The notes under the pieces were generated by a model, which did not search any database, was not told the origin of the DNA, and worked only from the letters and a program-made list of their open reading frames with translations. The position numbers and the translations under genes were made by a program. From a virus (taxonomy: Duplodnaviria > Caudoviricetes), in the IMG/VR virus record IMGVR_UViG_3300036825_000147, positions 1 through 34,667 of that record: DNA of 34,667 bases, one strand, 5' to 3'. Shown piece after piece: positions 1 to 34,667 of this stretch. Every line of letters begins with the position of its first letter. Positions within the stretch are counted from its first letter, which is position 1.

Positions 1-1935
1 ATGCTCCGTCCTATTTGTTATGAGCGAGTATCAAGCATTCAGCAAGTCGAAATGGGAAATGGATTGGATGATCAAAGGTCTTCTTTAACTGCCTATTTAG
101 ACAAAAATTCTGATAAGTTCACGAATGATAGAGTTTTCATAACAGATGCGGGGCTTTCGGCATTTAAAAATGCCAATATTTCACCTGAGTCTCAACTTGG
201 GATATTTTTGCAAGATGTGGGGAACCGCAAGTACGGTAAGGGTGACGCACTTATAGTCATTAGCCTTGATAGGTTATCGCGTCGTTCAAGTTGGGCTGAA
301 AGTACTATCCAGTACATCGTGAACAGCGGTGTAGAAATCCACGACATTTCTACAAATCTTGTGTTACGGGCAGATGATCCTATGTCGAAAATCCATATGG
401 AACTCATACAGCATCGCTCGCACAATGAATCATTGATGAAGTCGGTACGTGCTAAGTTAGCTTGGGATAACAAAATTTTACGTGCATTACAGAATGGAGA
501 GGTGATTTCCAATCGTATGCCTAACTGGTTAAAAAATGTTGATAACAAGTATCAGGTGATCCCTGAACAGGCTGAACTTATTGTTAAGTGTTTCGAGTGG
601 TATAGGGAGGGGCTTAGTACTGGAGAGATTGTTAAGCGTATCGGTAAAAAGTGGCAGATGGTAACAGTGTCAAGGCTGATACGTGACCGCCGCTTATTGG
701 GTGAACATGAGCGATATAATGGTGAGGTTGTACCAAATGTTTACCCGAAAATCATTGATGAAGACTTATTCCTAACGGCGAACAGGATGATGGATCGCGT
801 TATGCTGGAGAAGAAAAAGCCAGCCGAGGATCTGTTACTTGAACCTGATGAAGTTCGTGAAATTTTCAAACTGTATGAAAGTGGACTTGGCTCAGGGGCA
901 ATTGTTAAACGCTTGCCTAAAGGGTGGAGTACTGTAAATGTACTGCGAGTACTACGCGATAAGAAAGTAGTTACTATGAAGATTATCGATAATCTCACTT
1001 TTGAACGGGTCAATGAGAAGTTATCAAGGAATGGTATAGCCAATCGTATTCGTAAAGATATAACAATTGCTCAGGATGATTACATCACAAACCTGTTCCC
1101 CAAAATATTAAAGTGTGGTCATTGTGGAGGGAACATCGCCATTCACTATAACCATGTCAGAACTAAGTACGTCATTTGTCGCAACAGGGAAGAGAAGAAG
1201 ATTTGTGATGCCAAATCTTTCCAGTACACAAGAATTGAGAAGAATATTCTTCAACTTGTCAAAAACATCGATTTCAATAAATTAATGATGGAAGGACAGT
1301 CTGATGCTGACCTTTTGCTTACATCGTTGCGAGAAGAATTGTCTACTCTGAAGAAGGAAGAGGAAACCTATCAGATTAAAATTAATGAACGTAAGGTAGC
1401 AGGTAAGAAAACCTCTTTACCATTAATGACTGGTTTGACCGAGGTTCAAGATAGAATTGAAGAAATTGAATCCGATATTTTAAACGCTAAAAATATCAAA
1501 GAAATTCCTGTTTTTGACTTTGATATTAATAAAGTACTTGATCCGATGAATGTTGAACTACGTGCAAAACTAAGAAAGGAATTAAGATTAGTACTTAAAT
1601 CAGTAAAGTACTGGGTTTTTGGAAAACGTATTTTCGTTCAGTTAGAATATTTCAATGAGATCCTATCCCATGTACTTGTGATTGATAATAAGCGGGGTGG
1701 TGGTGAAGTACTACATGAAATTGTCATTTCAGAATCTAATGGTGAACGTGTTTATACGGTCAATGAAGAAGGTAAAACTGTATTCATTGCCTCAGTTACA
1801 TCTGGTACAGATATGTGGTCACTTGCTATTAGTCGTACAAAAAAACTGGATGATGTTGGATTGTATCTTAATTTACTCAATCGTGAAAATTTTGAGATCG
1901 TGGTGAATGAAGATTTGATTGATTGGATAGATTAA
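1..1935 (+). CDS. Large serine recombinase (integrase)
   Basis: N-terminal YERVSS catalytic motif, D-x-G-x-S, SLDRLSR, recombinase domain (YPKIID), zinc ribbon CGHCG...C...C, coiled coil. Confidence 0.93.
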   Translation: MLRPICYERVSSIQQVEMGNGLDDQRSSLTAYLDKNSDKFTNDRVFITDAGLSAFKNANISPESQLGIFLQDVGNRKYGKGDALIVISLDRLSRRSSWAESTIQYIVNSGVEIHDISTNLVLRADDPMSKIHMELIQHRSHNESLMKSVRAKLAWDNKILRALQNGEVISNRMPNWLKNVDNKYQVIPEQAELIVKCFEWYREGLSTGEIVKRIGKKWQMVTVSRLIRDRRLLGEHERYNGEVVPNVYPKIIDEDLFLTANRMMDRVMLEKKKPAEDLLLEPDEVREIFKLYESGLGSGAIVKRLPKGWSTVNVLRVLRDKKVVTMKIIDNLTFERVNEKLSRNGIANRIRKDITIAQDDYITNLFPKILKCGHCGGNIAIHYNHVRTKYVICRNREEKKICDAKSFQYTRIEKNILQLVKNIDFNKLMMEGQSDADLLLTSLREELSTLKKEEETYQIKINERKVAGKKTSLPLMTGLTEVQDRIEEIESDILNAKNIKEIPVFDFDINKVLDPMNVELRAKLRKELRLVLKSVKYWVFGKRIFVQLEYFNEILSHVLVIDNKRGGGEVLHEIVISESNGERVYTVNEEGKTVFIASVTSGTDMWSLAISRTKKLDDVGLYLNLLNRENFEIVVNEDLIDWID

Positions 1936-1939
1936 CTTA

Positions 1940-1979
1940 TGAACACTCTTGGCTGATTAATAATAAACAAGAGTGTTCA
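1940..1979. terminator. Inverted repeat after the integrase, possible terminator
   Basis: TGAACACTCTTG...CAAGAGTGTTCA, 12-bp stem directly after the stop codon; no strong U-tract. Confidence 0.45.
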
Positions 1980-2026
1980 AACCCTCACATACTACCTTTC
2001 ATTTCAACAACTTTTTGAAGGTTCCG

Positions 2027-2034
2027 AATAAATA
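2027..2034 (+). promoter_or_regulatory. T4-late-like promoter motif AATAAATA
   Basis: 29 nt upstream of the ATG at 2064, the same spacing as other copies. Confidence 0.45.
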
Positions 2035-2063
2035 TCTAAAAGATAATTAAAAAGGAACCTCAA

Positions 2064-2231
2064 ATGAACTTTCTAATAGAAGTACTCGCAGCCATTCTTT
2101 ACATTTTAGTTATATTCCCTATGTACATAGTCTGTTCAATCTTCTTTATGGTGCTATGTATCATTACACTACCTTTAAAGATACCAGTAATAAATAGATG
2201 GGTTAGGAACTACCTGAAACGGGAAAAATAA
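2064..2231 (+). CDS. Small hydrophobic membrane protein, 55 aa (missing from the ORF track)
   Basis: AAAGGA RBS; translates as MNFLIEVLAAILYILVIFPMYIVCSIFFMVLCIITLPLKIPVINRWVRNYLKREK. Confidence 0.7.
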   Translation: MNFLIEVLAAILYILVIFPMYIVCSIFFMVLCIITLPLKIPVINRWVRNYLKREK

Positions 2232-2436
2232 ACATGGTATAATATAGGTATCATGTACTTAACGCTTCCACTCAACTTCTTCAGTACTTCCAGATTGAAT
2301 CATCAATAAGGATTTAAAAATCCGTGAAACGATTTTGAAAAAAATCCTATACTAAAAATGTCTTCACATATCTCGCATGTTTCGAAGAATAATAATAAAT
2401 AATATATAGATTGTGACTCATCTATCTTTCCATTGA

Positions 2437-2756: not shown

Positions 2757-3236
2757 ATGAAACAATGGAAAAACACACAATATGAAAACTACATAGTAAG
2801 CTCTGATGGTGAAGTTTTTAATACTAAGACTAATAGAAAACTTAAAAACTCATTAAGTAAATCGAATGGGTATTATAAAGTATCATTATCTGTAAAAGGA
2901 TATGGCAGTAAAGTTATTGAGGTACATCGTCTTGTAGCCGAAGCATTTATACCACGCAATCAATCGTTGAAATTAGTAGTTGATCATATTGATGATAATC
3001 CGTTAAACAATGAAGTTAGTAATTTACAATGGATTACTCAGAAAAATAATATTGCAAAAATTAAAAAAAGAAAGCCTGGTGTTCGTTTTACAAAAGAAGA
3101 GAAAGAAGAAATTATTAGTACTTACAAAACTGGCAAGTACTCATTGATTGGAATAACAAACTATTTCAATAATCTTTGGAATCGTTCAGTATCACGTCAA
3201 GCTTATACAAGAATTATAAAAAAAGCAGGGCAATAA
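2757..3236 (+). CDS. NUMOD4/HNH homing-type endonuclease
   Basis: WK..Y.VSSDGEV, GYYKVSL, VHRLVAEAFIP, VDHIDDNPLNNEVSNLQW. Confidence 0.88.
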   Translation: MKQWKNTQYENYIVSSDGEVFNTKTNRKLKNSLSKSNGYYKVSLSVKGYGSKVIEVHRLVAEAFIPRNQSLKLVVDHIDDNPLNNEVSNLQWITQKNNIAKIKKRKPGVRFTKEEKEEIISTYKTGKYSLIGITNYFNNLWNRSVSRQAYTRIIKKAGQ

Positions 3237-3310: not shown

Positions 3311-3772
3311 ATGGCAAAGACCTATTCAACTTTTGATAACAGAAACATAAAGGCACTAATTAGCCAGTACAAGCTATATAAAGATATCCCATGTGAAGAT
3401 ATCAAGAACATTATGAAGGATTCAGTAGCTAAGCTTAAGGTGAGAGATAAGATTAGTGTCTATGACGTGTTTACAGTATTGAGTAATGAAGATGAAATAC
3501 GAAATGATTTACTATTCAATACTATCAATACTATTAAAGTACAACAGGATAAGAAACAAGTAAAAGAACGTATGATTAGGTACTACGGGGCAGCGATCAC
3601 GGATGCAGCAAAACGAATAGAGCAGTATTTGATGGCACACCCAGACGCTCTGCCAGCACCAGCATATGGACAAAGAACACTAACATATAAAGAGGTTGGT
3701 AATCTATTAGAACTACAAAAACAAGGTTATTTTATTGATGACATGATCGAGTACTTAAAGAGCTTGCGTTAA
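3311..3772 (+). CDS. Hypothetical protein (153 aa), candidate origin-binding/replication initiator
   Basis: ACAGGAG RBS supports a start at 3311 rather than 3176; lies directly upstream of the iteron-like repeats; function inferred from position only. Confidence 0.55.
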   Translation: MAKTYSTFDNRNIKALISQYKLYKDIPCEDIKNIMKDSVAKLKVRDKISVYDVFTVLSNEDEIRNDLLFNTINTIKVQQDKKQVKERMIRYYGAAITDAAKRIEQYLMAHPDALPAPAYGQRTLTYKEVGNLLELQKQGYFIDDMIEYLKSLR

Positions 3773-3775
3773 TTG

Positions 3776-3864
3776 TGCCTTATTACGGCATATTACGGCA
3801 TATATCCATGCCGTATTACGGCAGAAAAAGCCCCTGAAACCCGCGTTCTACCATCAATACGGCA
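3776..3864. repeat. Iteron-like TATTACGGCA repeats
   Basis: Copies at 3781, 3791 and 3814; TACGGCA at 3858; palindrome TGCCGTA-T-TACGGCA at 3809-3823. Confidence 0.85.
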
Positions 3865-4235: not shown

Positions 4236-4967
4236 ATGAACAGAAAACAATTCATCCAGTCGCATGGTGCTACTTGTAGTAACTGGAATTGGAGTTGGTC
4301 ATTTGTGAATCACGACAAGAAAATGGTGATCTTTGGTGCTTGGGATGTTCAGAAAGAGCAAGAAAGATCAGTCATACTGAGGGAGCGGTGGAAAACCAAA
4401 GTAGTGGAAGGCAGGGTAAGAAAAAATCTGGGATACATTCAAGCTATTGAACACATCCAATTGATAGCTGAAGGTTATGATCTTTTCACTTTTAATATGG
4501 AACAGGGGCGAAACGATGAAGATAGAGATGTTGCTGTTATCAAACGTTTCACTCCTAAACTTGAAAAGCGTTACCTTCGAAAAGAAGGTCCAGTTTGGTA
4601 TGCAGATTTTTTGCCTAATCCGTTCCCTGACGAGATTACCTCACCTGAAAACTACGCTGAAGGAGCAAAAAAGCAAATTACAGTAAACTCTTACGAGCGT
4701 GATCCAAAAGCACGGCAGGCTTGTATTGACCATCATGGAACTTCATGCATGTGTTGTGGATTTGACTTTGAGAAAGTCTATGGTGAACACGGAAAAGGAT
4801 TTATACACGTTCATCATATCAAACCACTACATACAGTAGGTGAGAACTATGTAGTAAACCCGATTGAGGATATGGTTCCCCTTTGTCCTAACTGTCATGC
4901 AATGATACATAGGGGAAGTGAAGTCTTAAGTTTAGAAACATTAAAATTAATAGTTGAGAAAAAATGA
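4236..4967 (+). CDS. HNH endonuclease with a McrA-like C-terminal domain
   Basis: YERDP..R..C, CMCCGFDF, IHVHHIKPL, PLCPNCHAMIH; GAGGA RBS. Confidence 0.85.
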   Translation: MNRKQFIQSHGATCSNWNWSWSFVNHDKKMVIFGAWDVQKEQERSVILRERWKTKVVEGRVRKNLGYIQAIEHIQLIAEGYDLFTFNMEQGRNDEDRDVAVIKRFTPKLEKRYLRKEGPVWYADFLPNPFPDEITSPENYAEGAKKQITVNSYERDPKARQACIDHHGTSCMCCGFDFEKVYGEHGKGFIHVHHIKPLHTVGENYVVNPIEDMVPLCPNCHAMIHRGSEVLSLETLKLIVEKK

Positions 4968-5419
4968 GTATATTAACAGTAGCAGCTAAATATAAAGATT
5001 TGTTTTCAGTGCTTTCGTTTATCATAGCATGTACTTCCTTATTTTTTTCAGGTAGAACAGCATGGCATGATAGATCGAGATTGAAAATTTCAGGTCGAGT
5101 TGTATACGAACCGGTTTACGAAAAGGCTTATAAAATTGAAGTGTCAGTTCTGAATGTTGGCAGGCGTGATGCTGTATTAGAAGGGATTCTATGCCATTAC
5201 GAAGGGAATAATACCAGACATAGTTATGAAAAAAATGGATTTATACTAAAAGAAAAGCAAAGAGAAATGTTTCAAATAGAGTTCAGGGATTTAGTAATTA
5301 CAGATGATGATGGAAATGCTTATGAGTTAGAAAACATTACCGTATTGGATGTTGAAGGGAAAGAGCATGAAATTCCTAATTCAAAAAATCTTATTGCAAG
5401 GTTTTCTAAAGATGCATAA
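4964..5419 (+). CDS. Hypothetical protein with an N-terminal membrane anchor
   Basis: ATGA overlap with the HNH gene; hydrophobic residues about 13-30. Confidence 0.7.
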   Translation: MSILTVAAKYKDLFSVLSFIIACTSLFFSGRTAWHDRSRLKISGRVVYEPVYEKAYKIEVSVLNVGRRDAVLEGILCHYEGNNTRHSYEKNGFILKEKQREMFQIEFRDLVITDDDGNAYELENITVLDVEGKEHEIPNSKNLIARFSKDA

Positions 5420-5579
5420 CCTATCGAAAATAAAGATAGCTAAAAAATACGAGTGAATTAGAAAGTCTCATACGGAATATGATAATTTAAGTTGGTTTTT
5501 AGACTCACTACATTTAGGAGGCTGTTTGTTTAAATGGCATATGTTAGAATCGTCATATGCAAACAGCAGGGAAAACAAA

Positions 5580-6107
5580 ATGCAAATCATGAGGATGACA
5601 TACGACGATATTGATAATAATGGCTACGCCAAATTACACGTCTATGGAATAGGAACTTTCTCGGTTTTTAGTGGGCAAAACCCATATACCAATGATCCCA
5701 ACTGTGCGTACTTACCAAACAGTGCAATACCTACTGGAAGGTACTGGATAGTTGATAGGCCAACTGGCTCTACACTGAATAAGATCCGGGCATGGGGCGT
5801 TGATACAATCACAGGTAATGACCACTCCGAATGGTTTGCACTCTTCAGTGCTCAAACCATGACAGATAGCATAATGATTAACGGTGTATCACGTGGTAGT
5901 TTCCGGTTACATCCACTCAGGCCGGATGGTTCTGGTTTCTCAGAGGGGTGTATTACTTTCGTCAATCGACCGGATTTCTACACTGTACGTAGTCAGTTGC
6001 TCCGTACTAAAAAGGTTAAAGTACCAGGATCAAGGACTGGATTGATGGCATATGGTTATGTTGATGTGCAAGGGGGGAGCGACTATGCGAAGTGCAGGAT
6101 TCGTTAA
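5580..6107 (+). CDS. DUF2778 / Tlde1-like (L,D-transpeptidase-fold) protein
   Basis: AIPTGRYWIVDRP and FRLHP...SEGCIT (His/Cys motif); ATG at 5580 preferred over the TTG at 5526. Confidence 0.75.
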   Translation: MQIMRMTYDDIDNNGYAKLHVYGIGTFSVFSGQNPYTNDPNCAYLPNSAIPTGRYWIVDRPTGSTLNKIRAWGVDTITGNDHSEWFALFSAQTMTDSIMINGVSRGSFRLHPLRPDGSGFSEGCITFVNRPDFYTVRSQLLRTKKVKVPGSRTGLMAYGYVDVQGGSDYAKCRIR

Positions 6108-6360
6108 GAATGCGGCCATATACAGTATCTGTATTGTCTTTGCATGGTGGCTATCAAGTTTCGGTAAGCCTCTCAATGGACTAACTCAATGGGTCATGGA
6201 TACCGCCTATAGTACTTTCGGTTCAAGCCTGAGTGGTTCATATGAAGCTGATGCAGATCCGGTAAGGTTCATCGCCTTAATCCTGATGGTTCTTATCTAC
6301 GCTACCATACTGTTCTTGCTCACACGCTTAGTACTCAGAAAGTTTCAGGCCAATCGCTAA
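6085..6360 (+). CDS. Small two-TM membrane protein coupled to the DUF2778 gene
   Basis: GGGGGAG RBS before the ATG at 6085; overlaps the upstream gene end; two hydrophobic segments. Confidence 0.7.
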   Translation: MRSAGFVKNAAIYSICIVFAWWLSSFGKPLNGLTQWVMDTAYSTFGSSLSGSYEADADPVRFIALILMVLIYATILFLLTRLVLRKFQANR

Positions 6361-6377
6361 TACCTCATTTTATTAAG

Positions 6378-6411
6378 TACCCTCACTGCATATGGTGAGG
6401 GTATTTTTTTT
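6378..6411 (+). terminator. Rho-independent terminator
   Basis: TACCCTCAC-loop-GTGAGGGTA followed by a T-tract. Confidence 0.85.
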
Positions 6412-6466
6412 GTACTTAATTACTGGCTCTAAGAATAAATACATCAACAATAGATGAGGTGAGTTT

Positions 6467-6709
6467 ATGGAAAAATATATTATTAACGGTTTTGTTTATG
6501 AAGTGATTGGCAATGTGATAACCGTCCAGCCAGTGCAAGAATTTAAGTTTCAATTTTATCCAAGCGGAAATCAGTCATGCCCTGTATTTTCTATCAAACA
6601 TTATGTCATTGATGAACTACTGAACATGGGAAATGATGAATTATTCAATGCTTCACTAACTGATGAGACTATCATTACTGCAAAGAGTTTAGTGTCTAAT
6701 CAAAATTGA
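6467..6709 (+). CDS. Hypothetical protein
   Basis: GAGGT RBS; AATAAATA at 6434-6441. Confidence 0.65.
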   Translation: MEKYIINGFVYEVIGNVITVQPVQEFKFQFYPSGNQSCPVFSIKHYVIDELLNMGNDELFNASLTDETIITAKSLVSNQN

Positions 6710-6769
6710 GCTGAAAACAGTAAATATATAGAAAGGTTAGCAGTACTAACCCACTATAGGATTTACGAA

Positions 6770-7027
6770 ATGATAAGAATGGAATTTAACACCTATGATG
6801 ATGGAACATACTATTTCCTGTATGTTACAGAGGAAGTACGTATTGAAACTAATGGTTCTGATGGTTTGCAGATGGAAACCTTTGATTCGAGGGTAAGGGA
6901 TTTAGGTGATCCGTTCCAGTACTTAACGATCAAAGAACGAAAAGATGAGTACTTCAACGAAAGCCTATGTAATCAGTACATAGATACTGTTATTGAAGCA
7001 ATCAAAACACTTAATGGGTTGATATGA
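6770..7027 (+). CDS. Hypothetical acidic protein
   Basis: TAGGA RBS; AGTAAATA at 6719-6726 plus a leader hairpin GGTTAG/CTAACC. Confidence 0.65.
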   Translation: MIRMEFNTYDDGTYYFLYVTEEVRIETNGSDGLQMETFDSRVRDLGDPFQYLTIKERKDEYFNESLCNQYIDTVIEAIKTLNGLI

Positions 7028-7102
7028 AGGTGATGATTTTATTTGAGAATGATGACCTTAACTTAAAGCATGATCATCACAACTCTTGTACCATCTATAA
7101 TG

Positions 7103-7786
7103 TTATTTAAAGAGAGTATCAAAATCCACAGTCAAATTTCTAATTGAGTCGGCTAATGATTTATGTATTTCTTCAACATCTAATTTTTTCTGCTGCCATA
7201 ATAGAATTACATTATGTACGGTGTTTTTGTTATCAAATGGGTATGGTAAATCAGAAGTTAGTCTTTCTAATTCTATAAGGTTTTTAATCAGTGAGTGGAT
7301 CTTATCTTCTTGCTGTAATTCTATTTTCCATATTTTTAAACTTTTGAGTCTTGTGCTAAAATTAATTGCTTTTTTTATGAACTCTTGCCAAAGTTCATTA
7401 TGTCGTTTGAAGTTATCTAAAAGATCACTTGGAGTAGCGTTATCCTCAGGCTTAATTATTAACCTGTAACTTGCTAACAAATGCTGTTGCAATATCCTTA
7501 ACTGTATCATTTCTGCCATACACATACTGGCTTGCTTGAATCCTTCATGTTGTATCTTAGGAGAGATCCAATCTTTCGCATTGTACGCAGCATAGACTGC
7601 CGCACCAGCCATCGCCATATTACATACAGCACTTACCCAATCTGTTACGCTCCCCCATTCGAATCCTTTTACATTCAGAAAAAGAACCTTGATAAGTACT
7701 AAGATTGCAACAATGAAAAGAACTATAATGATGCCTAATAAAGAAAAATTTGTTTTTTTAAATTCCACTGTTGAAAAAATCCGCAA
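7103..7786 (-). CDS. Membrane-anchored hypothetical protein, paralogous to 33972-34667
   Basis: 227-aa ORF (TTG start, uncertain) with two N-terminal hydrophobic segments and a shared motif AY..K.W...KI....FK. Confidence 0.7.
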   Translation of the reverse strand: MRIFSTVEFKKTNFSLLGIIIVLFIVAILVLIKVLFLNVKGFEWGSVTDWVSAVCNMAMAGAAVYAAYNAKDWISPKIQHEGFKQASMCMAEMIQLRILQQHLLASYRLIIKPEDNATPSDLLDNFKRHNELWQEFIKKAINFSTRLKSLKIWKIELQQEDKIHSLIKNLIELERLTSDLPYPFDNKNTVHNVILLWQQKKLDVEEIHKSLADSIRNLTVDFDTLFK

Positions 7787-7847
7787 TTAAATTTATTGAT
7801 CAATTATTGTACTTTACCACTGTAAACGCAATCAAGTACACTCCGGT

Positions 7848-7906
7848 TTCACGCTACACCTATAAATGGGTGGTTTGTAGTAGGGTATATGTAGGTGTAG
7901 CGTGAA
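7848..7906. repeat. 15-bp perfect inverted repeat with a 29-nt spacer
   Basis: TTCACGCTACACCTA (7848-7862) / TAGGTGTAGCGTGAA (7892-7906). Confidence 0.85.
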
Positions 7907-7907
7907 G

Positions 7908-8222
7908 TTAGAACGGTAGTTCTTCTTGTCCACAAAACCAATCATCACCATGTTGTTCATATACACGTTGTTCAGCATGTAGATAACTCATAGCGTCCAG
8001 TACAGTTTTGAATGGCGTTTCGCTAATCAGTACAAAACAATCCCTTTCAACCGTTCCCAGCCAGAACACCCCGCCTACAGAACCTTCAAATATCACCCGA
8101 TCACCAAACTTGAATTGCTCAAGAGCACTCCCCCAGTAACAGACCGTGAACCATACCCCATTGTTGGAGAACTGGTGAACACCTCTACGTATGGATGGAT
8201 CGTAACCGTTCTTATTACCCAT
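7908..8222 (-). CDS. Putative SOS-regulated hypothetical protein (104 aa)
   Basis: GGGAGG RBS before the ATG at 8222; LexA box immediately upstream; C-terminus QEELPF. Confidence 0.75.
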   Translation of the reverse strand: MGNKNGYDPSIRRGVHQFSNNGVWFTVCYWGSALEQFKFGDRVIFEGSVGGVFWLGTVERDCFVLISETPFKTVLDAMSYLHAEQRVYEQHGDDWFCGQEELPF

Positions 8223-8240
8223 GCTCAAGCCCTCCCATGA

Positions 8241-8260: not shown

Positions 8261-8313
8261 TCGCAGGAGAGTCCAATAAAATCCAATTTTAAAAAGGCTT
8301 GTAAGAAAGGGAC

Positions 8314-26819: not shown

Positions 26820-26822
26820 TTT

Positions 26823-27467
26823 ATGTCAATTCCAAGTATTGTACTAACTAATGCGGATCTTGTCGCGTACTGGAATCTTACACGAGGCGATAACAAAACC
26901 GTACTAACAGAAAAAGAACTATATCAATGTGGTGTTATGGTAAAACTAATAGATGTACTTCCACCTACTGGAAGTAACATATATCTAACTGATGCCATTG
27001 CCGATCAAAACTTTAATGGAATTAACTATAAGTCTGTACCTGATTTCCTTGATTCATCATTTGCAAACTATGTTGAAAAAACACAAATCAACAATAACGG
27101 TACTTCTTTGAAAGTAAGTAATGTAAGCCAGGATTATCTATCTATGGCGTTACGTGGATTGTGGAATGATGCCAAAGTTAATATCTGGATGGGTATAGTT
27201 AATCCAGCTACAGGGGGCATTCTATATGCCTATCGTATGTTTAGTGGTTACATTGATTACTTTAGTTCAGACTTTAACAACACAGCAGGTAATATAACAA
27301 ATGAAACAACGGTAAATCTAAATTCATTGTGGAAGAAGTTAGACCAAACACAACGCTTGTTATCAAGTACATCAGTACACCAATCATTACACACTGGTGA
27401 TAAGTTCTTTGACCTAATCGGAATACTAAATAGTTCAGAGCAATTCTGGAAGAGTAGTAAGAAATAA
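26823..27467 (+). CDS. Minor tail / baseplate hub protein (gpL-like position)
   Basis: Synteny; YLTD, FSGYID and GDKFF motifs. Confidence 0.6.
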   Translation: MSIPSIVLTNADLVAYWNLTRGDNKTVLTEKELYQCGVMVKLIDVLPPTGSNIYLTDAIADQNFNGINYKSVPDFLDSSFANYVEKTQINNNGTSLKVSNVSQDYLSMALRGLWNDAKVNIWMGIVNPATGGILYAYRMFSGYIDYFSSDFNNTAGNITNETTVNLNSLWKKLDQTQRLLSSTSVHQSLHTGDKFFDLIGILNSSEQFWKSSKK

Positions 27468-27862
27468 TGAAAAACGGATTTATAACAGAGTACCTAAGTG
27501 GTTTAGTTGGTAAACCTTTAGTGTACGGTACTAATGATTGTCATATCATGGTACTCACAGTCATTGATATGATCACAGGTAGTAATTACCGTGATGAAAT
27601 CTATCAGAAATACACAACACCAACAGCAGGTAGAAAATACGCAAAAGCTAACTGTAGTTATTCTACTCTACATCTATTGTGTAAAGAAAAAGGCCAATTA
27701 GTCAGTGAACCACTTGATGGGGATATCATCATTTCATCAGGTCACAGTACAGTTTATTGGCGTGGGAAAGTAGTAATTTTATCAGAAGATAAATCTAACT
27801 ATATCGTTTCTCAATATATCCCAAATGAAAAAGACAAAATATACAGATTTAAAGGGGAATAA
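27467..27862 (+). CDS. NlpC/P60-like tail assembly protein (gpK-like position)
   Basis: YGTNDC...GD.....GH. Confidence 0.65.
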   Translation: MKNGFITEYLSGLVGKPLVYGTNDCHIMVLTVIDMITGSNYRDEIYQKYTTPTAGRKYAKANCSYSTLHLLCKEKGQLVSEPLDGDIIISSGHSTVYWRGKVVILSEDKSNYIVSQYIPNEKDKIYRFKGE

Positions 27863-27864
27863 CT

Positions 27865-30800
27865 ATGGCAGTAGCAGCAGTTGCCGTAGCTATTATCGCA
27901 GGGGCATCAGCAGCCGCAGCCGCATACGCAGCAGGGTTAGCTTTAGCAGCAGTAGTAGCTATAGGTATTGGTACAGCAGCACTATCTTACATTAGTTCAT
28001 CACAGATGATGAATGTAGGCCAAATGGGGGTAACGTATCCGAGTACGGGTAGTAACAATGCCCGATCAACATCACCAAGTACTGGCATACCGATTTCATA
28101 CGGCGGTTCTAACCGCAACGCAACAGAGGTAGCCTATAACAAGTTAGGCTCTATCGTCGTATGGCAGAACGTCTATAAAGATACTTCAAACCAGCTATGT
28201 ACGGTTCACGCGATCAGTATCGGTGAAATCGGGCAAGTACCAGGGGAACAATCACAAGGCGTAATCAAGCAGATCTATTTTGATAATGCTCCGGTACTCA
28301 TGGATGGTGCGTACATCATCACAGAAGGGATCGTACCTACCTCAATGATGATTGAGAAGTACCGTAAGTACCTACAGATTGAGGTACGTTTCGGTAAGCC
28401 GTCCTACGGCGGTTCTATGACGCTTGCCCGTCAATATGGCGGTAGTCAATGGACTGACAACATGCGTGGTGATGGTCTTGTACAGATCTGTACCGTAATC
28501 AAGAAAACCAACGATTCATTGATTGATGGGATTCTAACGAACCAGAACTATACGTTATCGGTAGAAATGCGTGGACGTATGATCTATGACTTAACTGATA
28601 ATGTACGTAAACCAAGTTCAAACCCTCCAAGCCAACTATATGACTTTATCACTAATACAGAGTTTGGATTCGGCCTTGATCCTAATGATATTGATATTAC
28701 CAGTTTCCGTAATATGGCAAACTATTGTGCTCAGAATCATTTCTATTCCAATGGTAATATTCAATATGATAAATCCTTTAAGGAAAACATTGAAAATATT
28801 CTACAAACATTTGGTGGTGTACTTTATGAATCAAACGGTAAGTACTATCTAACCGTTGATGCTCCAGACATTCCAAGTTTACATTTTGATGAAACAAATA
28901 TTATTGGCAGTGTGAATATCACAACGGGTTCTAAGTCTGACTATTTTAATACAATGGACAGTACCTATACAAACCCAGGCAATGACTATTCGCAAGATAT
29001 TATCCGTTATCCAAGTGATGCCATTAGTAACGCATCCATTGCTAAAGATGGTTATATTATTAAGAAGGATTTAAACTATCTTTGGGTACAGGATAAAAAT
29101 CAGCTTGCTATTCTTAGTAACATTGAATTACTAAAATCTAAGTACATTACGAACACGATTACTTTCAATACTTATGTAACAGATATGAAAGTATATGATG
29201 TGTTTACAATTGATTTTAAAGAAGCTGGATTTAGTAATAACAAGTACAGATGTATTCAACGTACTGTACCAATGACCGTAGATAAAGCAGGCATTATCCA
29301 GATCACCGCGATTTCGTATGATGATGGTATATATCAAGGAAAAGATCCGGGACAATTCCCACAAGATGGATTGACCAATCTACCTAACCCAACATACGTA
29401 GAACCGCCAAGTAACCTACAGGCTCAGCGTCTTGGGGCAACAGCATCAGGTAACACCGTTCTATTAACATGGGATCTTAGTCAGGATACAACTGTACGTG
29501 GTTATAAGATTCGTTATAAACGCAGTGATTCCAGTGTTTGGATCAGCATTGGTAACGTAGGGCAGTACTCTACGAGTTTTGAGATATTAAATCTTCTATA
29601 TGGTGTTCAGTACGACTTCGCTATTGAGTCGTATAATACCCTTGGTTATTCATCGGAATTAGTAGCTATCTATAATCAAACACCACAAGTTATATTCGCA
29701 TTACCGAAGATTACTAACCTTGATATGGTGAATGATGATGTAGGTTTAAACCAGACTTATGCTCAAGATTTCATTTTACGTTGGGATGATCAGGCTAACA
29801 TAGCCGTAAATGGTAAAACATTTGCTGATTTCTTCAAACATTATGAAATTCGTGTGTATGACCGATACAGGAACTACATCACATCGTACTACACCACTAC
29901 AAGCAACTGGACGTACTCATATTCAATGAATACCAGTGATGGCCTTAGCCGTTACCGTGTGTTTGGGATCATCGCTCATGGTTGGGGTACTGGTATCTAT
30001 AGTGAAGAAGTTCAGATTGAAGTTAGTAACCCACAACACCCACAATTGTTAGGTATCAATTTGAAGAGTGGTTATGATTCTGTGTTCATCGACTGGACTG
30101 AATCAAACGTACCGGATTATGCGGGGATAGTGCTTCAAATCGCACTTGATGAGGGGTTTAGTTCAGGGTCGAAGTACTTTAGCAGTGCTAACCGCTATTC
30201 AGCATCGTTTGGTATTGAAGATGGTTCATGGTTCGCACGTGTAGCAGCCTATGACGTTTTCGGACAGGATGAATTGGTATGGTCGCCTACTATCGGCTTT
30301 AACCAAAACACGAAGGTTCCATACAGCAAATTGAACGAAGATGTTATTGATAGTCTTCTAAATAGTGATACTGCTACTGGTATTGTTGAGAAACAGATCG
30401 TAGATGAACTTGGTTCACGCTGGCAGCTACAGGTATCAAACAACGGTAACGTAACGGGCATTGCTTTAGCCGCAGATGAAAAAACATCAGTGTTTACCGT
30501 AATGGCGGATCGCTTTAGTGTTATCAGTACGGATAGTGCCAAACTATCAGACAGGGTTTATCCACTTGTTGTTCAAAATGGGAAAGTATTTCTTAACTCA
30601 GCGGTTATAGCGTCAGCGAGCATCAACGAGGCCATGATAAATGACCTAAGCGTCTCACGAGCGAAAATTCAATCCGCAGCGATCGACAGTACAAAAATTG
30701 CACAAGCCTCGATCCTCAATGGGCACCTGGTTAATGGAATTATCGACTCTGCGAAGATATCCCAACAGATACAAAGTACTAACTGGGATGGTACGAATGG

Positions 30801-31395
30801 TTGGATGATTAACAAGAACGGTACAGCCAACTTTGGTAACGCTACTATTCGCGGTACGATTTTTGCGAACAGCGGAGTACTCAACAACGTTACTATCAAT
30901 GAAAACTGTAACATTCTTGGTACTTTAAGTGCCGCACGTATCGTAGGTGATATTTGCCGTCCTCAATCGACGGGTATCAACCCTGTACCGTTTATCTTTG
31001 GTTCACGTACTGTTTCTGGTGGTCAGGCCGCATTAGATCCAGTAGCAAACCAACACTATGTAGCGTTGCGTATTCGTGGTGAAGATTTCCCACGTTACTT
31101 CGATAGTGATTTATCAATTAGCTTGACCTCATATGAACGTCAATACTTCTATATTCGTATGGGTGGTGATGGAATTGGTTTAACCAACTTGTTCTATTAT
31201 GATGCTGGTAACGGTGGTAGTTCTACATCTTTCAGATTGAATTCTATATATGTACCGCCTGTTGGTCGTGGAAATTGGAACTATATCTATGTGATGTGTA
31301 CAACTTCACGTAGTGGCATTGCTTCACTTAATGTTCCTGCTAACTGGTCTTCATTCTTATATCGTGCTGGTGATCAACCTTTATATAATGCGTAA
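27865..31395 (+). CDS. Central tail tip / host specificity protein (gpJ-like, FN3 domains)
   Basis: 1176 aa; IPISYG, SSNP, FN3 (PPSNL, LTW, GYKIRY), F.VMADRF, GWMINKNG. Confidence 0.88.
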   Translation: MAVAAVAVAIIAGASAAAAAYAAGLALAAVVAIGIGTAALSYISSSQMMNVGQMGVTYPSTGSNNARSTSPSTGIPISYGGSNRNATEVAYNKLGSIVVWQNVYKDTSNQLCTVHAISIGEIGQVPGEQSQGVIKQIYFDNAPVLMDGAYIITEGIVPTSMMIEKYRKYLQIEVRFGKPSYGGSMTLARQYGGSQWTDNMRGDGLVQICTVIKKTNDSLIDGILTNQNYTLSVEMRGRMIYDLTDNVRKPSSNPPSQLYDFITNTEFGFGLDPNDIDITSFRNMANYCAQNHFYSNGNIQYDKSFKENIENILQTFGGVLYESNGKYYLTVDAPDIPSLHFDETNIIGSVNITTGSKSDYFNTMDSTYTNPGNDYSQDIIRYPSDAISNASIAKDGYIIKKDLNYLWVQDKNQLAILSNIELLKSKYITNTITFNTYVTDMKVYDVFTIDFKEAGFSNNKYRCIQRTVPMTVDKAGIIQITAISYDDGIYQGKDPGQFPQDGLTNLPNPTYVEPPSNLQAQRLGATASGNTVLLTWDLSQDTTVRGYKIRYKRSDSSVWISIGNVGQYSTSFEILNLLYGVQYDFAIESYNTLGYSSELVAIYNQTPQVIFALPKITNLDMVNDDVGLNQTYAQDFILRWDDQANIAVNGKTFADFFKHYEIRVYDRYRNYITSYYTTTSNWTYSYSMNTSDGLSRYRVFGIIAHGWGTGIYSEEVQIEVSNPQHPQLLGINLKSGYDSVFIDWTESNVPDYAGIVLQIALDEGFSSGSKYFSSANRYSASFGIEDGSWFARVAAYDVFGQDELVWSPTIGFNQNTKVPYSKLNEDVIDSLLNSDTATGIVEKQIVDELGSRWQLQVSNNGNVTGIALAADEKTSVFTVMADRFSVISTDSAKLSDRVYPLVVQNGKVFLNSAVIASASINEAMINDLSVSRAKIQSAAIDSTKIAQASILNGHLVNGIIDSAKISQQIQSTNWDGTNGWMINKNGTANFGNATIRGTIFANSGVLNNVTINENCNILGTLSAARIVGDICRPQSTGINPVPFIFGSRTVSGGQAALDPVANQHYVALRIRGEDFPRYFDSDLSISLTSYERQYFYIRMGGDGIGLTNLFYYDAGNGGSSTSFRLNSIYVPPVGRGNWNYIYVMCTTSRSGIASLNVPANWSSFLYRAGDQPLYNA

Positions 31396-31432
31396 TAAAT
31401 ACTATTACCAAATATAATACATAGGAATATAA

Positions 31433-31711
31433 ATGGACATCTTAACGATTGGTTCATTGATTGTTTCAGCTTTAGTATTGTGCTGGACTGTTTATAGGGA
31501 TTTTACATCTGACTCAGACGAATTAGATGCACGTATTTCTACCGTTGAAACGAAAGTTGCTTTGATGGATCAGTCTCTAACTTCGCTTGAGCAGGAACAA
31601 GATCAAATGAAGAAGACATTAAAAAACTTAGAAGATAGTGTACATATGCTTGATATTAAAATTGAGCGTGTAATTACAATGCTTGAAACGCTAAGAAATA
31701 AAAGGGGCTAA
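31433..31711 (+). CDS. Single-TM coiled-coil protein, possibly lysis-related
   Basis: N-terminal TM plus heptad region; adjacent to the lysozyme gene; AATAAATA at 31394-31401. Confidence 0.55.
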   Translation: MDILTIGSLIVSALVLCWTVYRDFTSDSDELDARISTVETKVALMDQSLTSLEQEQDQMKKTLKNLEDSVHMLDIKIERVITMLETLRNKRG

Positions 31712-31725
31712 ATAGCCCCTTTTTT
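31700..31725. terminator. Bidirectional terminator between convergent genes
   Basis: AAAAGGGGCTA-AA-TAGCCCCTTTTTT. Confidence 0.8.
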
Positions 31726-32170
31726 ATTTGTTGGTGAGTTCTGCAATCATCTGATCTACTCGTGATTTAGTTTGTCTGTACCAGAGTGAATCTTTAGCCT
31801 GTACAATCGCTTCTTTATAGTTTTTATCACGTAAGGCTTGAATCATCTTTCTGAACTTTAAAGTACCTGATAGACCAAGTTGAAAAACCATAATGGTCAT
31901 GAAGTCCTGCCAGTCAGAAGGCAAATCTAATCCTAATGAGCGAACAGAATACTTAGCAGTACTGATATCTTCTTCTAACATCCGTTCGGCTTGTTCTGGT
32001 GCAATACCGTTTGGATATGATTCACCAGGTTTTAGTAGTCGACCGTACCCAATAGTTTGATAACCAAGGCTATCTTTATATGTCCAAAATTTACCATTCT
32101 TAAAATAACCAATTTTAGTTTGATAGGCAATTGATCCCTCATAGCTAATTAGCCTGTTTTTTAAATCCAT
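31724..32170 (-). CDS. Endolysin, T4-lysozyme-like (GH24)
   Basis: EG...YKDSLGYQTIGYG, FQLG, SLWYRQT..R mirror T4 lysozyme motifs. Confidence 0.9.
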   Translation of the reverse strand: MDLKNRLISYEGSIAYQTKIGYFKNGKFWTYKDSLGYQTIGYGRLLKPGESYPNGIAPEQAERMLEEDISTAKYSVRSLGLDLPSDWQDFMTIMVFQLGLSGTLKFRKMIQALRDKNYKEAIVQAKDSLWYRQTKSRVDQMIAELTNK

Positions 32171-32172: not shown

Positions 32173-32210
32173 AATAAATACCTTATAATAATTATCATAG
32201 GGTATTTATA
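32173..32210. promoter_or_regulatory. Face-to-face pair of late-promoter motifs serving the divergent lysozyme and GIY-YIG genes
   Basis: AATAAATA (+, 32173-32180) and TATAAATA (-, 32210-32203), 29 and 32 nt from their respective ATGs. Confidence 0.62.
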
Positions 32211-32641
32211 TGAAGCAATGGAATTACAATGATGATTGGAGTGAGGAAGAATTAACAAACGGTAGTTATGTAGGATTCGTGTACTTGTTCCAGTTCGAAG
32301 ACAGCACCTTTTATATTGGTAGCAAACAGATGTATAAGAGAGTTAAGGATGTTAAGAAAATAAAAGCTAATTCAGTTGAAAATGGATGGCGTGAGTACAG
32401 TTCAAGTTCAAAGATAGTTAATCAAAAGATAGAAGATGGATTAGATTATACTCGTACCATTTTATGGGCTTTTCCATCAATGAAAGAAACACTATTCGTA
32501 GAAACAGCACTAATCATTAATCAGGGATTGAAAGCGGGAAATATTAATCTTTCCGTTATGCATAAGGCACGTTTGCCAAGTGGAAAGGATGCTGTACGTT
32601 TACGTGGAATACTTCAATCATTATATGAAATAATAAATTAA
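32210..32641 (+). CDS. GIY-YIG family nuclease-like protein
   Basis: GFVY-x9-YIG motif, WREYSSSS, conserved Glu and Asn downstream. Confidence 0.72.
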   Translation: MKQWNYNDDWSEEELTNGSYVGFVYLFQFEDSTFYIGSKQMYKRVKDVKKIKANSVENGWREYSSSSKIVNQKIEDGLDYTRTILWAFPSMKETLFVETALIINQGLKAGNINLSVMHKARLPSGKDAVRLRGILQSLYEIIN

Positions 32642-32650
32642 GGATGATTT

Positions 32651-33262
32651 ATGGCATGGCGTAGAGGGCATAGCCCACAAAATATGAGAACCTTCATTAA
32701 CCGAAACAGCCCACGTATAGGTTCACAGTTCAAGAAAGAACTAAGTGATCGTATGCGGATTGTTTCGAAAGAAATTCAACAGAAGATAAGCAGTGAAGCG
32801 GCAGGTGGGGTAGTGTCATTTACATCACGTTCTGTATTCTTCAAATTTCAAAAAGTTAATAACTTCGAAACCGTAAACCAGATCATAGTATTACCTAACC
32901 AAACCTCATACTTAAAATACATCCTTGACCCTTCCTATAAGACTACTACAGAAAAGAAAATGATTCCTATTAGTAGTAACGCAAATATGACTAAAGAAGG
33001 GAACATTAAGCAACTTCGGGCTAAATCCAGAAGTAATAAATACAAAAAGGTGAAGAGCAGGAACGGTAACACGTACTTAATCGACACTACCAAGAAATCA
33101 TCTAAGCGTAATCCAAAGCTGGCACGTGAAAAGAGGGTTATTGGTTACTATGGTTCCGTAGGCAGAAAACCATTGTTTGATTTCTACGATGAAACCGAGA
33201 AACAAGTAATAGAACAATTAAGAACATTACGCGGTACGTTTGATTACCGTTGGAGGAATTAA
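32651..33262 (+). CDS. Basic hypothetical protein, possibly a displaced neck/tail completion protein
   Basis: 203 aa, K/R-rich, AAGGA RBS; function guessed from composition. Confidence 0.5.
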   Translation: MAWRRGHSPQNMRTFINRNSPRIGSQFKKELSDRMRIVSKEIQQKISSEAAGGVVSFTSRSVFFKFQKVNNFETVNQIIVLPNQTSYLKYILDPSYKTTTEKKMIPISSNANMTKEGNIKQLRAKSRSNKYKKVKSRNGNTYLIDTTKKSSKRNPKLAREKRVIGYYGSVGRKPLFDFYDETEKQVIEQLRTLRGTFDYRWRN

Positions 33263-33263
33263 G

Positions 33264-33584
33264 ATGGATAACTTAGAAAATTTCCCATGTTATGATCATA
33301 CTGTACTAACAGATTTTTCTTTTCAGACAATCCAACCAGTAAGTGTAACCATACCATATGATAAAGCACTATCTGGTAGTAAGCTCATAAAAAAGAAGGT
33401 TGATAAAACAAAAGGTGATTTAGTCGTATACAGCTTTCATCATCATACAAAACCTAACGTAACTGATGGTGATGTACTAATGGTGGAGTTGCTAAAAGAT
33501 AAAATAGACGTTCAGGTACTACTATCTTATAACCACATCTATAAAGGTCATCGCGTATTTTCTTGTGTTTGCCAAATACAATAA
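33264..33584 (+). CDS. Hypothetical protein
   Basis: GGAGG RBS supports the ATG at 33264. Confidence 0.65.
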   Translation: MDNLENFPCYDHTVLTDFSFQTIQPVSVTIPYDKALSGSKLIKKKVDKTKGDLVVYSFHHHTKPNVTDGDVLMVELLKDKIDVQVLLSYNHIYKGHRVFSCVCQIQ

Positions 33585-33593
33585 GGACTAATT

Positions 33594-33887
33594 ATGATTG
33601 GTGTGATAGTAGAACTACTAACAAAAGGTGTGGACTTCTTTCTAAAACGTAAAACGATAGAACAGGAAGTGCAGAAAACAAATGCTGAAGGACAAATAGA
33701 AACCAACAAAGAAGAGATAGAAAAGGTTACTTTCCACTGGCGTAATGCTCTTGGATTTGTGATCACCTTAATCATTCTCTATAACTGGATCATAGTACCA
33801 GTACTGGATGCTTTCGGTATCGTGGTCATTCAAGTACCATTAGGGCAACTACTGCAAGTACTATTGATTATGGTCGGCGGAAGCTAA
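33594..33887 (+). CDS. Putative holin (3TM-holin-like)
   Basis: WRNALGFV...YNWIIVP and C-terminal hydrophobic segments. Confidence 0.62.
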   Translation: MIGVIVELLTKGVDFFLKRKTIEQEVQKTNAEGQIETNKEEIEKVTFHWRNALGFVITLIILYNWIIVPVLDAFGIVVIQVPLGQLLQVLLIMVGGS

Positions 33888-33910
33888 AAAAAGCCCCTGG
33901 TGGGGCTTTT
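33886..33910. terminator. Bidirectional terminator
   Basis: AAAAAAAGCCCC-TGGT-GGGGCTTTT. Confidence 0.8.
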
Positions 33911-33971
33911 ACTTTATGATAACTAACAACGAAACTTGTGTATAATTAATTTAAGAAATATTTACTTGTTA

Positions 33972-34667
33972 TTAGTTGTTGCTGTATTTGAATATGTCAA
34001 TGTATTTCCTTTTCAGTAGTGCATCATATATATAACCAACAGTGTCAATTCTTCCAACAATGCTATTGGCAAGTGTTTTTATATCTTCGTTACTTAATTT
34101 CTTTGCTTGGTTAGCATTAGAGGAGAACATAGCCAATTGTTCTCTAATAGTATTGCATTCAGATTGACATGTAGTAAGATGAACCCTGGTTTTTTCCCAG
34201 TGTTTTTTACATTTAAATATAATTCCCCAATGCGAGAAGCTATGTATAAGTAATATTTGATTGCTTATGCAAATAAAATAATCTTCTTGGATTTTATTTA
34301 TTTCTTCTTTAAGTGTTAGAGCGTTTTTTTCTGTTAACTTTTCTGTTTTTGCCACATGTAGTAGTGCATACTTCAAACGAGCTAATATAACCATCAATTT
34401 TAAAAATTCTTCAAGTAATTCCTCAGAACGTTTAAATGCTTTTTCATTAATTTTAGAATTAACCCATTTTTTAACTTGATATGCTGAGTAGATCGCCAAG
34501 AGTAAAGCACAGACCGCTACAGTTGCTGATAAACCTGGGGCAGTAATTTTCTTTGGGTTTTTAAATAAAAGCCATGTGATAAATTCGGTTAGCAATACAC
34601 CTACAAATAATGATTTTATATGTAAAAGTTTAACTCGTTCAAATTGTTTTTTAGCCCATTTTTTCAT
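33972..34667 (-). CDS. Membrane-anchored hypothetical protein, paralogous to 7103-7786
   Basis: 231-aa ORF with two N-terminal TM segments and the shared motif. Confidence 0.72.
   Translation of the reverse strand: MKKWAKKQFERVKLLHIKSLFVGVLLTEFITWLLFKNPKKITAPGLSATVAVCALLLAIYSAYQVKKWVNSKINEKAFKRSEELLEEFLKLMVILARLKYALLHVAKTEKLTEKNALTLKEEINKIQEDYFICISNQILLIHSFSHWGIIFKCKKHWEKTRVHLTTCQSECNTIREQLAMFSSNANQAKKLSNEDIKTLANSIVGRIDTVGYIYDALLKRKYIDIFKYSNN

What the first reader, a model, noticed from the sequence alone, without database searches (positions are those of the whole stretch)
1..34667. Apparent total absence of GCGC
A line-by-line manual scan found no GCGC, while CGCG, GGCC and CCGG all occur and GCG and CGC are each frequent. 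Rough base composition predicts a few dozen copies. GCGC is abundant in enterobacterial chromosomes. Inference: either strong selection against a GCGC-cutting nuclease (an HhaI/HinP1I-like restriction enzyme, or a helper-phage nuclease that degrades host DNA and that the element must survive), or erosion by m5C deamination. A helper genome might share the avoidance, which would help identify it.
Basis: partly seen in the sequence, partly recalled or inferred. Interest (0 to 1): 0.78.

Follow-up and report, generated by a model that had tools for sequence, protein, structure and literature searches.

The report
This 35-kb integrated virus-like element has no GCGC at all, exactly like the giant RaK2-like lytic phages whose promoter motifs it also carries, so it is likely a parasite that builds its own virus particle but runs on a jumbo phage's gene-expression programme and has likely purged GCGC to survive a predicted jumbo-phage enzyme that would cut the host's DNA at that word.

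Summary
GCGC is absent: 0 against 37 expected (33±5 by codon shuffling). The absence is family-wide (0 in 390 kb from 22 element stretches) and stops at host DNA and at an inserted IS3. Four whole RaK2-like jumbo phage genomes (121Q, RaK2, GAP32, BF; 1.41 Mb) also have zero GCGC (691 expected); two outgroup jumbos, five other lytic phages and the host do not. The element further shares with these jumbos an AGTACT excess, the palindromic-hexamer profile, TAAATA late-promoter motifs, a genus-matched middle-promoter motif (TGAAACG-N13-TGGTATAAT) and its lysozyme's closest relatives. It encodes head, tail and lysis genes but no recognisable repressor, late activator or polymerase. Best reading: a virion-forming satellite of RaK2-like jumbos that avoids a jumbo-encoded GCGC nuclease. 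A candidate (121Q gp432, clade-restricted, predicted Type II restriction fold) was found; its specificity is untested. Deamination is unsupported. CTAG is also absent (0/92), apparently a separate pressure. Earlier notes of this scan saw the AGTACT match in this family on other DNA and called it convergent; one rejected a satellite reading.

The parts
1..34667 (.). Whole element: 0 GCGC, 0 CTAG, 67 AGTACT
1..1935 (+). Large serine integrase
   Evidence: Pfam Resolvase, Recombinase, Zn_ribbon_recom; phrog_95
2215..2243 (+). Predicted jumbo-type middle promoter TGAAACG-N13-TGGTATAAT (GAP32/BF type)
   Evidence: 28.1 bits on a matrix from 51 GAP32+BF sites (training range 24.1-40.3; best of 10 shuffled windows 8.0); motif found at the same place in 12 of 14 left arms
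2325..2353 (+). Second, weaker copy of the middle-promoter motif
   Evidence: 9.1 bits; also seen in L012, L018, L149, L150
2514..2684 (+). Small ORF behind the middle promoter, a similar-sized one in each left arm that holds the promoter; ribbon-helix-helix-like by eye; predicted regulator or excision factor
   Evidence: no Pfam/PHROG/PADLOC hit; function inferred
2757..3236 (+). HNH/NUMOD4 homing endonuclease
3311..3772 (+). 153-aa ORF in the slot where relatives carry P-loop helicase-like or primase-like ORFs; predicted replication initiator
   Evidence: position; no family or Atlas hit; inferred
3776..3864 (+). TACGGCA repeats (4 direct, 1 inverted), predicted origin iterons; found only with the 153-aa ORF
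   Evidence: copy number varies in run X11
4236..11153 (.). Variable cargo (McrA-like HNH 4236-4967, Tlde1-domain gene, EAL gene, others); also GCGC-free
11288..31711 (+). Virion module (TerS, TerL, portal, protease-capsid, tail tube, tape measure, tail tip, fibres) with TAAATA motifs at 11290, 13604, 17719/17758, 22787, 23322, 26211, 27427, 31396 before gene starts
   Evidence: TAAATA 26 sense vs 0 antisense in 11201-31720
31724..32170 (-). Lysozyme whose closest phage relatives are RaK2-like jumbo lysozymes; TATAAATA 38 nt upstream
32210..33887 (+). SegE-like GIY-YIG gene, two unknown ORFs and a holin-like gene behind a TAAATA motif

Best explanation
The element and its relatives contain no GCGC, as do RaK2-like jumbo phages, and the element is likely a satellite that makes its own virion but is switched on by a RaK2-like jumbo phage and has likely lost GCGC because that phage is predicted to cut unprotected DNA at GCGC. 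Steps: (1, shown) integrase plus full head/tail/lysis module, no recognisable repressor, late activator or polymerase. (2, motif shown, use inferred) on jumbo infection the jumbo's sigma70-like factor would read the middle promoter at 2215, expressing a small regulator and a replication initiator; the jumbo's gp55-like factor would read the TAAATA late promoters. (3, predicted) the jumbo expresses a Type II restriction-fold nuclease without a matching methylase (candidate 121Q gp432) that would shred the host chromosome, where GCGC occurs about every 120 nt, while sparing its own GCGC-free genome. (4, inferred) any element copy with one GCGC would be cut, so the word is purged even from newly acquired cargo. 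The window's promoter type points to a Mimasvirus/Eneladusvirus-like helper (GAP32, CBB, BF). My odds: helper dependence about 0.85; a jumbo nuclease as cause about 0.65; gp432 specifically about 0.5.
For: 0 GCGC in 22 element stretches, 390,413 nt, homologous and so not independent, plus L182 minus its IS, 27,771 nt, and the element parts of L006 and L007. Internal control: all 8 GCGC of the L182 element lie in an inserted 1.3-kb IS3. Jumbos: 0/154, 0/122, 0/256, 0/159 in 4 whole genomes; 0 in samples of SD-15, Munch, XbC2, Kaldavass, EJP2, G004, XaC1 and in 25 of 25 loci carrying the candidate nuclease (397,845 nt, partly redundant). Controls normal: Vibrio 2.275.O 561/526, PA5oct 337/238, RB43, CBA120, Seunavirus, Justusliebigvirus (25 kb each), DCP80 T4-like part 216/220. 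AGTACT 843-1072 per jumbo vs 134-169 for the reversed word, 81 and 15 in the outgroups. Profile of 55 palindromic hexamers without GCGC/CTAG: Spearman 0.60-0.80 with four jumbos, 0.12-0.25 with four controls. Middle-promoter -35 differs by jumbo genus (TGAAACR in GAP32/BF, TGGGACA/TGAGACA in 121Q, TTGAACA in RaK2) and elements carry one or the other at the same site: TGAAACR in the window and 9 relatives, TGGGACA in the E. coli element L001, TGAGACG+TGGGACG in L009. Lysozyme: 59 of the top 60 of 1,524 phage records are RaK2-like jumbos by name and size, the other is Vibrio 2.275.O. Candidate nuclease: 71 phage records, the 60 listed all RaK2-like; model pLDDT 93; top 8 VIA rows are restriction endonucleases incl. 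HinP1I Z 6.1, rmsd 3.4, 139 aligned; invariant E32, D52, S63-V-K65; Atlas neighbours are restriction-enzyme clusters. Sister case: the first 26 kb of record DCP80 is a syntenic homologue of the element with 11 TATAAATA, assembled together with a T4-like genome, and both parts lack GATC (0/121, 4/406) but keep GCGC.
Against: No induction, transcription or cleavage experiment exists. The jumbo promoter classes are themselves only predicted (PMC5259590), and the middle motif holds an extended -10 that host sigma70 could read (established knowledge). The fold matches are Z 6.0-7.4, tied, under 8; Foldseek found nothing at E<=0.001; Pfam HinP1I family had no match in 5 of 5 jumbos; a fold does not give specificity. 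gp432 was picked by eye from 57 clade-specific core proteins (of 186 tested); the other 56 were not folded. The jumbos and the element also lack many 6-bp palindromes, so ordinary restriction avoidance clearly acts on both. CTAG is absent from the window but present in every cultured jumbo examined; only one uncultured locus, L173, lacks it (0/20 in 20.7 kb). The 940-aa tail protein is as close to Seunavirus/Justusliebigvirus (53-56%) as to Asteriusvirus (51%). Of 4 metagenome runs holding element relatives only 1 held a contig collinear with the one jumbo locus probed.
Confidence: 0.6

Rival explanations
1. The element is a jumbo-dependent satellite, but GCGC is purged by a host nuclease (an HhaI/HinP1I-like restriction enzyme or a NucC-type abortive nuclease) that hits all DNA made during jumbo infection; gp432 does something else.
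For: Both genomes avoid many 6-bp palindromes and, by lineage, TGCA, CCWGG, CCSGG or CTAG, the pattern of restriction avoidance. Serratia NucC prefers CAnnGGCGCCnnTG (10.1101/2022.06.20.496707, passages read).
Against: The other avoided words vary between genera and are leaky, whereas GCGC is zero in every jumbo and element stretch examined; NucC needs the longer motif per that paper; host chromosomes keep GCGC at expectation; a restriction-fold gene tracks the GCGC-free clade.
Confidence: 0.17
2. The element is an autonomous temperate phage with unrecognised regulators; the shared words are convergent responses to the same host.
Against: Convergence would have to produce GCGC loss, AGTACT gain, a matching hexamer profile, two promoter classes and a genus-matched -35 box; five other enterobacterial lytic phages show none of the first two; no cultured phage of this family is among 50,697 records except fused to a T4-like genome.
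Confidence: 0.1
3. A jumbo factor other than gp432 reads GCGC (another nuclease, or a protein that blocks transcription or replication of GCGC-containing DNA, as T4 Alc does for cytosine DNA).
For: 56 other clade-specific core proteins remain untested; the jumbos also encode RecB-like and HNH nucleases.
Against: gp432 is the only one seen with a restriction-type catalytic motif and fold.
Confidence: 0.1
4. Erosion by m5C deamination after methylation of GCGC.
For: RaK2 DNA carries methylated CpG (PMC3622015, passages); 3 of 5 jumbos encode a C5-methyltransferase; GTGC/GCAC O/E is 1.11-1.28 in jumbos.
Against: BF and Munch have no match yet lack GCGC; no product excess in the window; mutation pressure would not give an absolute zero in cargo genes.
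Confidence: 0.03

Closest known systems
PLE of Vibrio cholerae with lytic phage ICP1 (10.1101/671271 and PMC13595925, passages read)
   Same: Integrated element tied to a virulent phage; must survive helper-driven host chromosome degradation; its gene expression follows the helper's programme; large serine integrase (recalled).
   Different: PLE (about 18 kb) borrows ICP1 virions and escapes by excision and replication; this element (35 kb) encodes head, tail and lysis and appears to escape by lacking the cut word.
cf-PICI (described in PMC10803314, passages read)
   Same: Satellite that makes its own capsid and packaging.
   Different: About 14 kb, temperate helpers, no tail genes (tail dependence recalled); here the tail module is present and the inferred dependence is on transcription and replication.
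PICMI (PMC10803314, passages read)
   Same: Satellite of virulent phages with integrase, small regulator and a replication gene.
   Different: About 6 kb, next to fis, no structural genes.
T4 endonucleases II/IV (PMC3184105 passage) and chlorovirus restriction enzymes (recalled)
   Same: Virus-encoded nucleases that destroy host DNA and spare the virus.
   Different: Those discriminate by base modification or a cognate methylase; here self would be defined by absence of the site. RaK2 lacks hydroxymethylcytosine genes (PMC3622015 passage).
HinP1I / HhaI / MspI / ThaI-type Type II restriction endonucleases
   Same: Predicted PD-(D/E)XK fold with E, D and SxK residues.
   Different: No sequence similarity; no adjacent methylase seen in 121Q; specificity unknown.

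Membership tests
Phage satellite (general) | Integrates at a chromosomal site with its own integrase | tested here: met
   Integrase; relatives inside E. coli ybhA with host genes on both sides
Phage satellite (general) | Excision, replication or transfer requires a helper phage | not testable with these tools
   Only indirect signatures
Phage satellite (general) | Lacks part or all of the virion genes | tested here: not met
   Terminase, portal, capsid, tail tube, tape measure, tail tip, fibres, lysozyme, holin all present
PLE | Vibrio cholerae host, ICP1 helper, about 18 kb, no own virion | tested here: not met
   35 kb, enterobacterial relatives, full virion module
cf-PICI | Own capsid genes but no tail genes, about 14 kb | tested here: not met
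   Tail module 17.8-31.4 kb present
PICMI | int, alpA, primase next to fis; no structural genes | tested here: not met
   No AlpA hit; structural genes present
Autonomous temperate siphovirus | Repressor/lysis-lysogeny switch and own late-gene activator | tested here: inconclusive
   None among 41 ORFs by PHROGs and Pfam; several small ORFs unassigned
Type II restriction endonuclease (candidate gp432) | PD-(D/E)XK fold with conserved catalytic residues | tested here: met
   Model pLDDT 93; top 8 VIA rows REases, Z 6.0-7.4; invariant E32, D52, K65; moderate strength
Type II restriction endonuclease (candidate gp432) | Cleaves a defined site (here GCGC) | not testable with these tools
   Only correlation: 25 of 25 loci with the gene lack GCGC
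Type II restriction-modification system | Cognate methyltransferase linked to the nuclease | tested here: not met
   Neighbours in 121Q are small ORFs without a methylase look; C5-methyltransferase lies far away in 3 jumbos and has no match in 2 of 5
R.HinP1I family (PF11463) | Profile match | tested here: not met
   0 of 5 jumbo genomes at E<=10

The most novel reading that the evidence does not exclude
A widespread class of virion-complete satellites of large lytic phages: they build their own particle but outsource transcription timing and replication, and copy the helper's sequence code. RaK2-like jumbos tell self from host with a methylase-free GCGC restriction nuclease (gp432), their satellites are GCGC-free and carry genus-matched promoters, and a sister lineage does the same with GATC on T4-like Gapriverviruses. 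Word content alone would then predict helper-satellite pairs.
Probability: 0.5. Interest if true: 0.93.

Novelty: new variant of a known kind. Interest (0 to 1): 0.86.

Why it matters
It would give a helper to an uncultured prophage family of enterobacteria, define a satellite type that steals a gene-expression programme instead of particles, and explain how RaK2-like jumbo phages, which have neither hydroxymethylcytosine nor a known nucleus shell, could destroy host DNA while sparing their own. It makes direct tests possible (one enzyme assay, one infection) and suggests a general way to pair satellites with helpers from k-mers and promoter boxes. A GCGC-cutting jumbo would also limit transduction and plasmid survival during phage therapy with these phages.

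Tried and rejected
T4-like, Ackermannviridae, Seunavirus and Justusliebigvirus helpers: normal GCGC, little or no AGTACT in the stretches sampled. HinP1I-family gene in jumbos: none. Pfam scan of 149 of 201 core 121Q proteins named no restriction enzyme. Sequence searches of gp432 against PDB and Pfam: nothing significant; Foldseek: nothing. Genomic context of the distant homologues P0061-P0066 could not be obtained: the cluster look-up could not be made, the P0062 scan found nothing, so whether their genomes lack another word is open. A whole genome for the CTAG-free jumbo L173 is not held; XaC1, Kaldavass, EJP2, G004 are not CTAG-free. No shared origin-like DNA between the left arm and cultured phages; blastn to four jumbos hit only lysozyme, tail fibre and the promoter. 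Atlas gave nothing for the 153-aa ORF. Co-occurrence in metagenomes: 1 of 4 runs, one jumbo lineage probed, too weak to count. Rows dropped before the element count: first 100 nt of L151 (one GCGC at nt 58, upstream of the integrase), the IS3 in L182, and the parts of L006 and L007 beyond homology to the window (11 and 15 GCGC). Ten literature searches found no paper on GCGC absence in RaK2-like phages or on such satellites; the library lacks most subscription papers, and supplements of PMC5259590 (promoter tables) were not read.
Full report
Observation. GCGC occurs 0 times in the window against 36.6 expected under an order-2 Markov model and 33.0±5.2 under synonymous-codon shuffling of 41 genes, minimum 19 in 300 shuffles. 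CTAG is also absent (0 vs 91.7), GGNCC and CCSGG occur twice each, and AGTACT is 3.5- to 4-fold in excess. No host chromosome is held for the window.

What the window is. An integrase-to-lysis element: large serine integrase, a short control region, variable cargo, then terminase, portal, protease-capsid, a complete long-tail module, lysozyme and holin. No repressor, antiterminator, sigma factor or polymerase was recognised among 41 ORFs. Relatives are rare in E. coli (5 of 5,426 genomes for the virion module; 2 for the left arm) and occur in Pseudescherichia, Mangrovibacter and 15 IMG/VR contigs at 81-97% terminase identity. One complete relative interrupts E. coli ybhA.

The absence is a family trait with sharp borders. 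22 element stretches (390,413 nt; homologous, so not independent) hold 0 GCGC, including unrelated cargo. The E. coli flanks are at expectation. In L182 all 8 GCGC lie in an inserted IS3 and none in the other 27.8 kb; in L006 and L007 the word returns where homology to the element ends. CTAG and TGCA losses vary by lineage and even by module, so they are separate, weaker pressures.

Search for a helper. Of five large phages sampled at 25 kb, only the Asteriusvirus SD-15 had 0 GCGC and an AGTACT excess. Whole genomes of 121Q, RaK2, GAP32 and BF, four genera, 1,410,158 nt, contain 0 GCGC against 691 expected; samples of Munch, XbC2, Kaldavass, EJP2, XaC1 and G004 also 0. The related jumbos Vibrio 2.275.O and PA5oct have normal GCGC and no AGTACT excess. 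Across 55 palindromic hexamers that contain neither GCGC nor CTAG the window correlates with the four jumbos at 0.60-0.80 and with four controls at 0.12-0.25.

Promoter motifs. PMC5259590 (section 17 read) predicts for CBB and GAP32 a promoter with -35 TGAAACG before replication genes, a late motif ATAAATA, a sigma70-like gene and a gp55-like gene. The window has TAAATA 26 times on the sense strand and never on the antisense strand of the virion module, placed before terS, tail tube, distal tail, lysozyme and other genes. At 2215 it has TGAAACG-N13-TGGTATAAT, 28.1 bits on a GAP32/BF matrix, against at most 8.0 in 10 shuffles. The -35 box differs by jumbo genus, and 12 of 14 left arms carry one of the types at the same position: TGAAACR in ten, the 121Q type in the E. 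coli element L001 and in L009; the two without begin inside the replication gene. Behind it lie a small ORF, often an HNH gene, and a swappable slot holding either the window's 153-aa ORF with TACGGCA repeats or helicase-/primase-like ORFs (by motif only). Caveat: these promoter classes are untested and the extended -10 could serve host sigma70.

Gene sharing. The lysozyme's top 60 of 1,524 phage hits are 59 RaK2-like jumbos and Vibrio 2.275.O. The large tail protein is not specific.

Candidate nuclease. Of 186 core proteins up to 600 aa, 57 had no match in either outgroup. One, 121Q gp432, shows E...AD...YSVK. It occurs in 71 phage records, the 60 listed all RaK2-like; 25 of 25 loci carrying it lack GCGC. 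The model (pLDDT 93) aligns best to restriction endonucleases: 3ndh (ThaI, name recalled) Z 7.4, NhoI 7.0, SfiI 6.5, SwaI 6.3, HinP1I 6.1, EcoRV, NaeI, MspI 6.0, HhaI 4.9; Foldseek found nothing. E32, D52 and S63-V-K65 stay invariant at 26% identity. In the 121Q-type locus L153 a middle-type motif lies directly upstream. Specificity is not shown.

Deamination and host nucleases. No excess of GTGC/GCAC in the window; C5-methyltransferase matches in 3 of 5 GCGC-free jumbos only. Host restriction certainly shapes both genomes, since many 6-bp palindromes are missing, and NucC prefers a GGCGCC core; but those avoidances vary by lineage while GCGC is zero in every stretch examined.

A sister case. 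The best terminase hit among 50,697 phage records is DCP80, whose first 26 kb is a syntenic homologue of the element (25-38% identity) with 11 TATAAATA, assembled with a rearranged Gaprivervirus genome. Both parts lack GATC (0/121, 4/406) and keep GCGC. I read this as a mixed lysate of helper and satellite; that is inference from one irregular record.

Against the reading. No experiment; fold scores moderate; 56 other clade-specific proteins untested; CTAG loss is matched by only one uncultured jumbo locus (L173, 0/20) and by no cultured one; co-occurrence was seen in 1 of 4 metagenomes; the element fails the usual satellite criterion of missing virion genes.

Comparison. It works like PLE in depending on a virulent phage and having to outlast host DNA destruction (10.1101/671271, PMC13595925, passages), and like cf-PICI in making its own head (PMC10803314, passages), but is a member of neither. 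Papers seen: passages of PMC3606486, PMC3184105, PMC3622015, 10.1101/406421, PMC7824862, 10.1101/694703, 10.1101/2022.06.20.496707, PMC13282480, PMC12768965, PMC10803314, PMC13595925, 10.1101/671271; section 17 and passages of PMC5259590; abstract and outline of PMC12595487. Ten searches found no report of this link (listed under Tried and rejected).

Verdict. Observation confirmed and extended. Most likely a virion-forming satellite of RaK2-like jumbo phages, here tuned to a Mimasvirus/Eneladusvirus-like helper, whose GCGC-free sequence mirrors a predicted helper nuclease. Confidence 0.6 for the whole mechanism, about 0.85 for helper dependence; interest 0.86.

Noticed in passing
window 1-34667: CTAG is absent (0 vs 92); also in most close relatives, but only in some modules of L001; matched by one uncultured jumbo locus (L173: CTAG 0/20, GGNCC 0, CCSGG 0), hinting at a second nuclease in one jumbo lineage or at a host system.
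   Followed up: partly
window 1-34667 and RaK2-like jumbos: AGTACT is 4- to 7-fold in excess in both and co-varies with GCGC loss across jumbos; a clade-specific Dam-like methyltransferase (121Q 193985-194503, PF05869) is a possible reader or writer. Unexplained.
   Followed up: partly
L002:1-26200 (PQ671644.1, DCP80): A sister element with T4 late promoters is fused to a T4-like genome in one record; both lack GATC. Possible second helper-satellite pair and a GATC-directed nuclease in Gaprivervirus.
   Followed up: partly
L001, L009, L011, L016, L022 and jumbos XbC2, Kaldavass, L159: TGCA is strongly depleted in some element lineages and in some jumbo lineages, not in others.
   Followed up: no
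window 4236-4967: McrA-like HNH nuclease (PADLOC mREase_IV); RaK2 DNA is reported to carry methylcytosine, so it could act against the helper.
   Followed up: no
window 5541-6360 and 9434-10117: Tlde1-domain gene with a downstream membrane ORF, and a stand-alone EAL gene, as cargo.
   Followed up: no
L041:6948-7358 and L034:16023-16511 (121Q): Clade-specific ORFs that look by eye like an ADP-ribosyltransferase and a NADAR hydrolase (resemblance recalled, no database hit).
   Followed up: no
L019 and L159: An element fragment and a 371-kb jumbo contig carry the same IMG dataset number in their ids.
   Followed up: no
L127, L128, L144, L145, L158: Munch-like jumbos have no CCWGG in the stretches sampled, while other RaK2-like jumbos keep it.
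   Followed up: no
P0061, P0062, P0064, P0065, P0066: Distant homologues of the candidate nuclease (26-38% identity) of unknown origin; their genomes may lack other words.
   Followed up: partly
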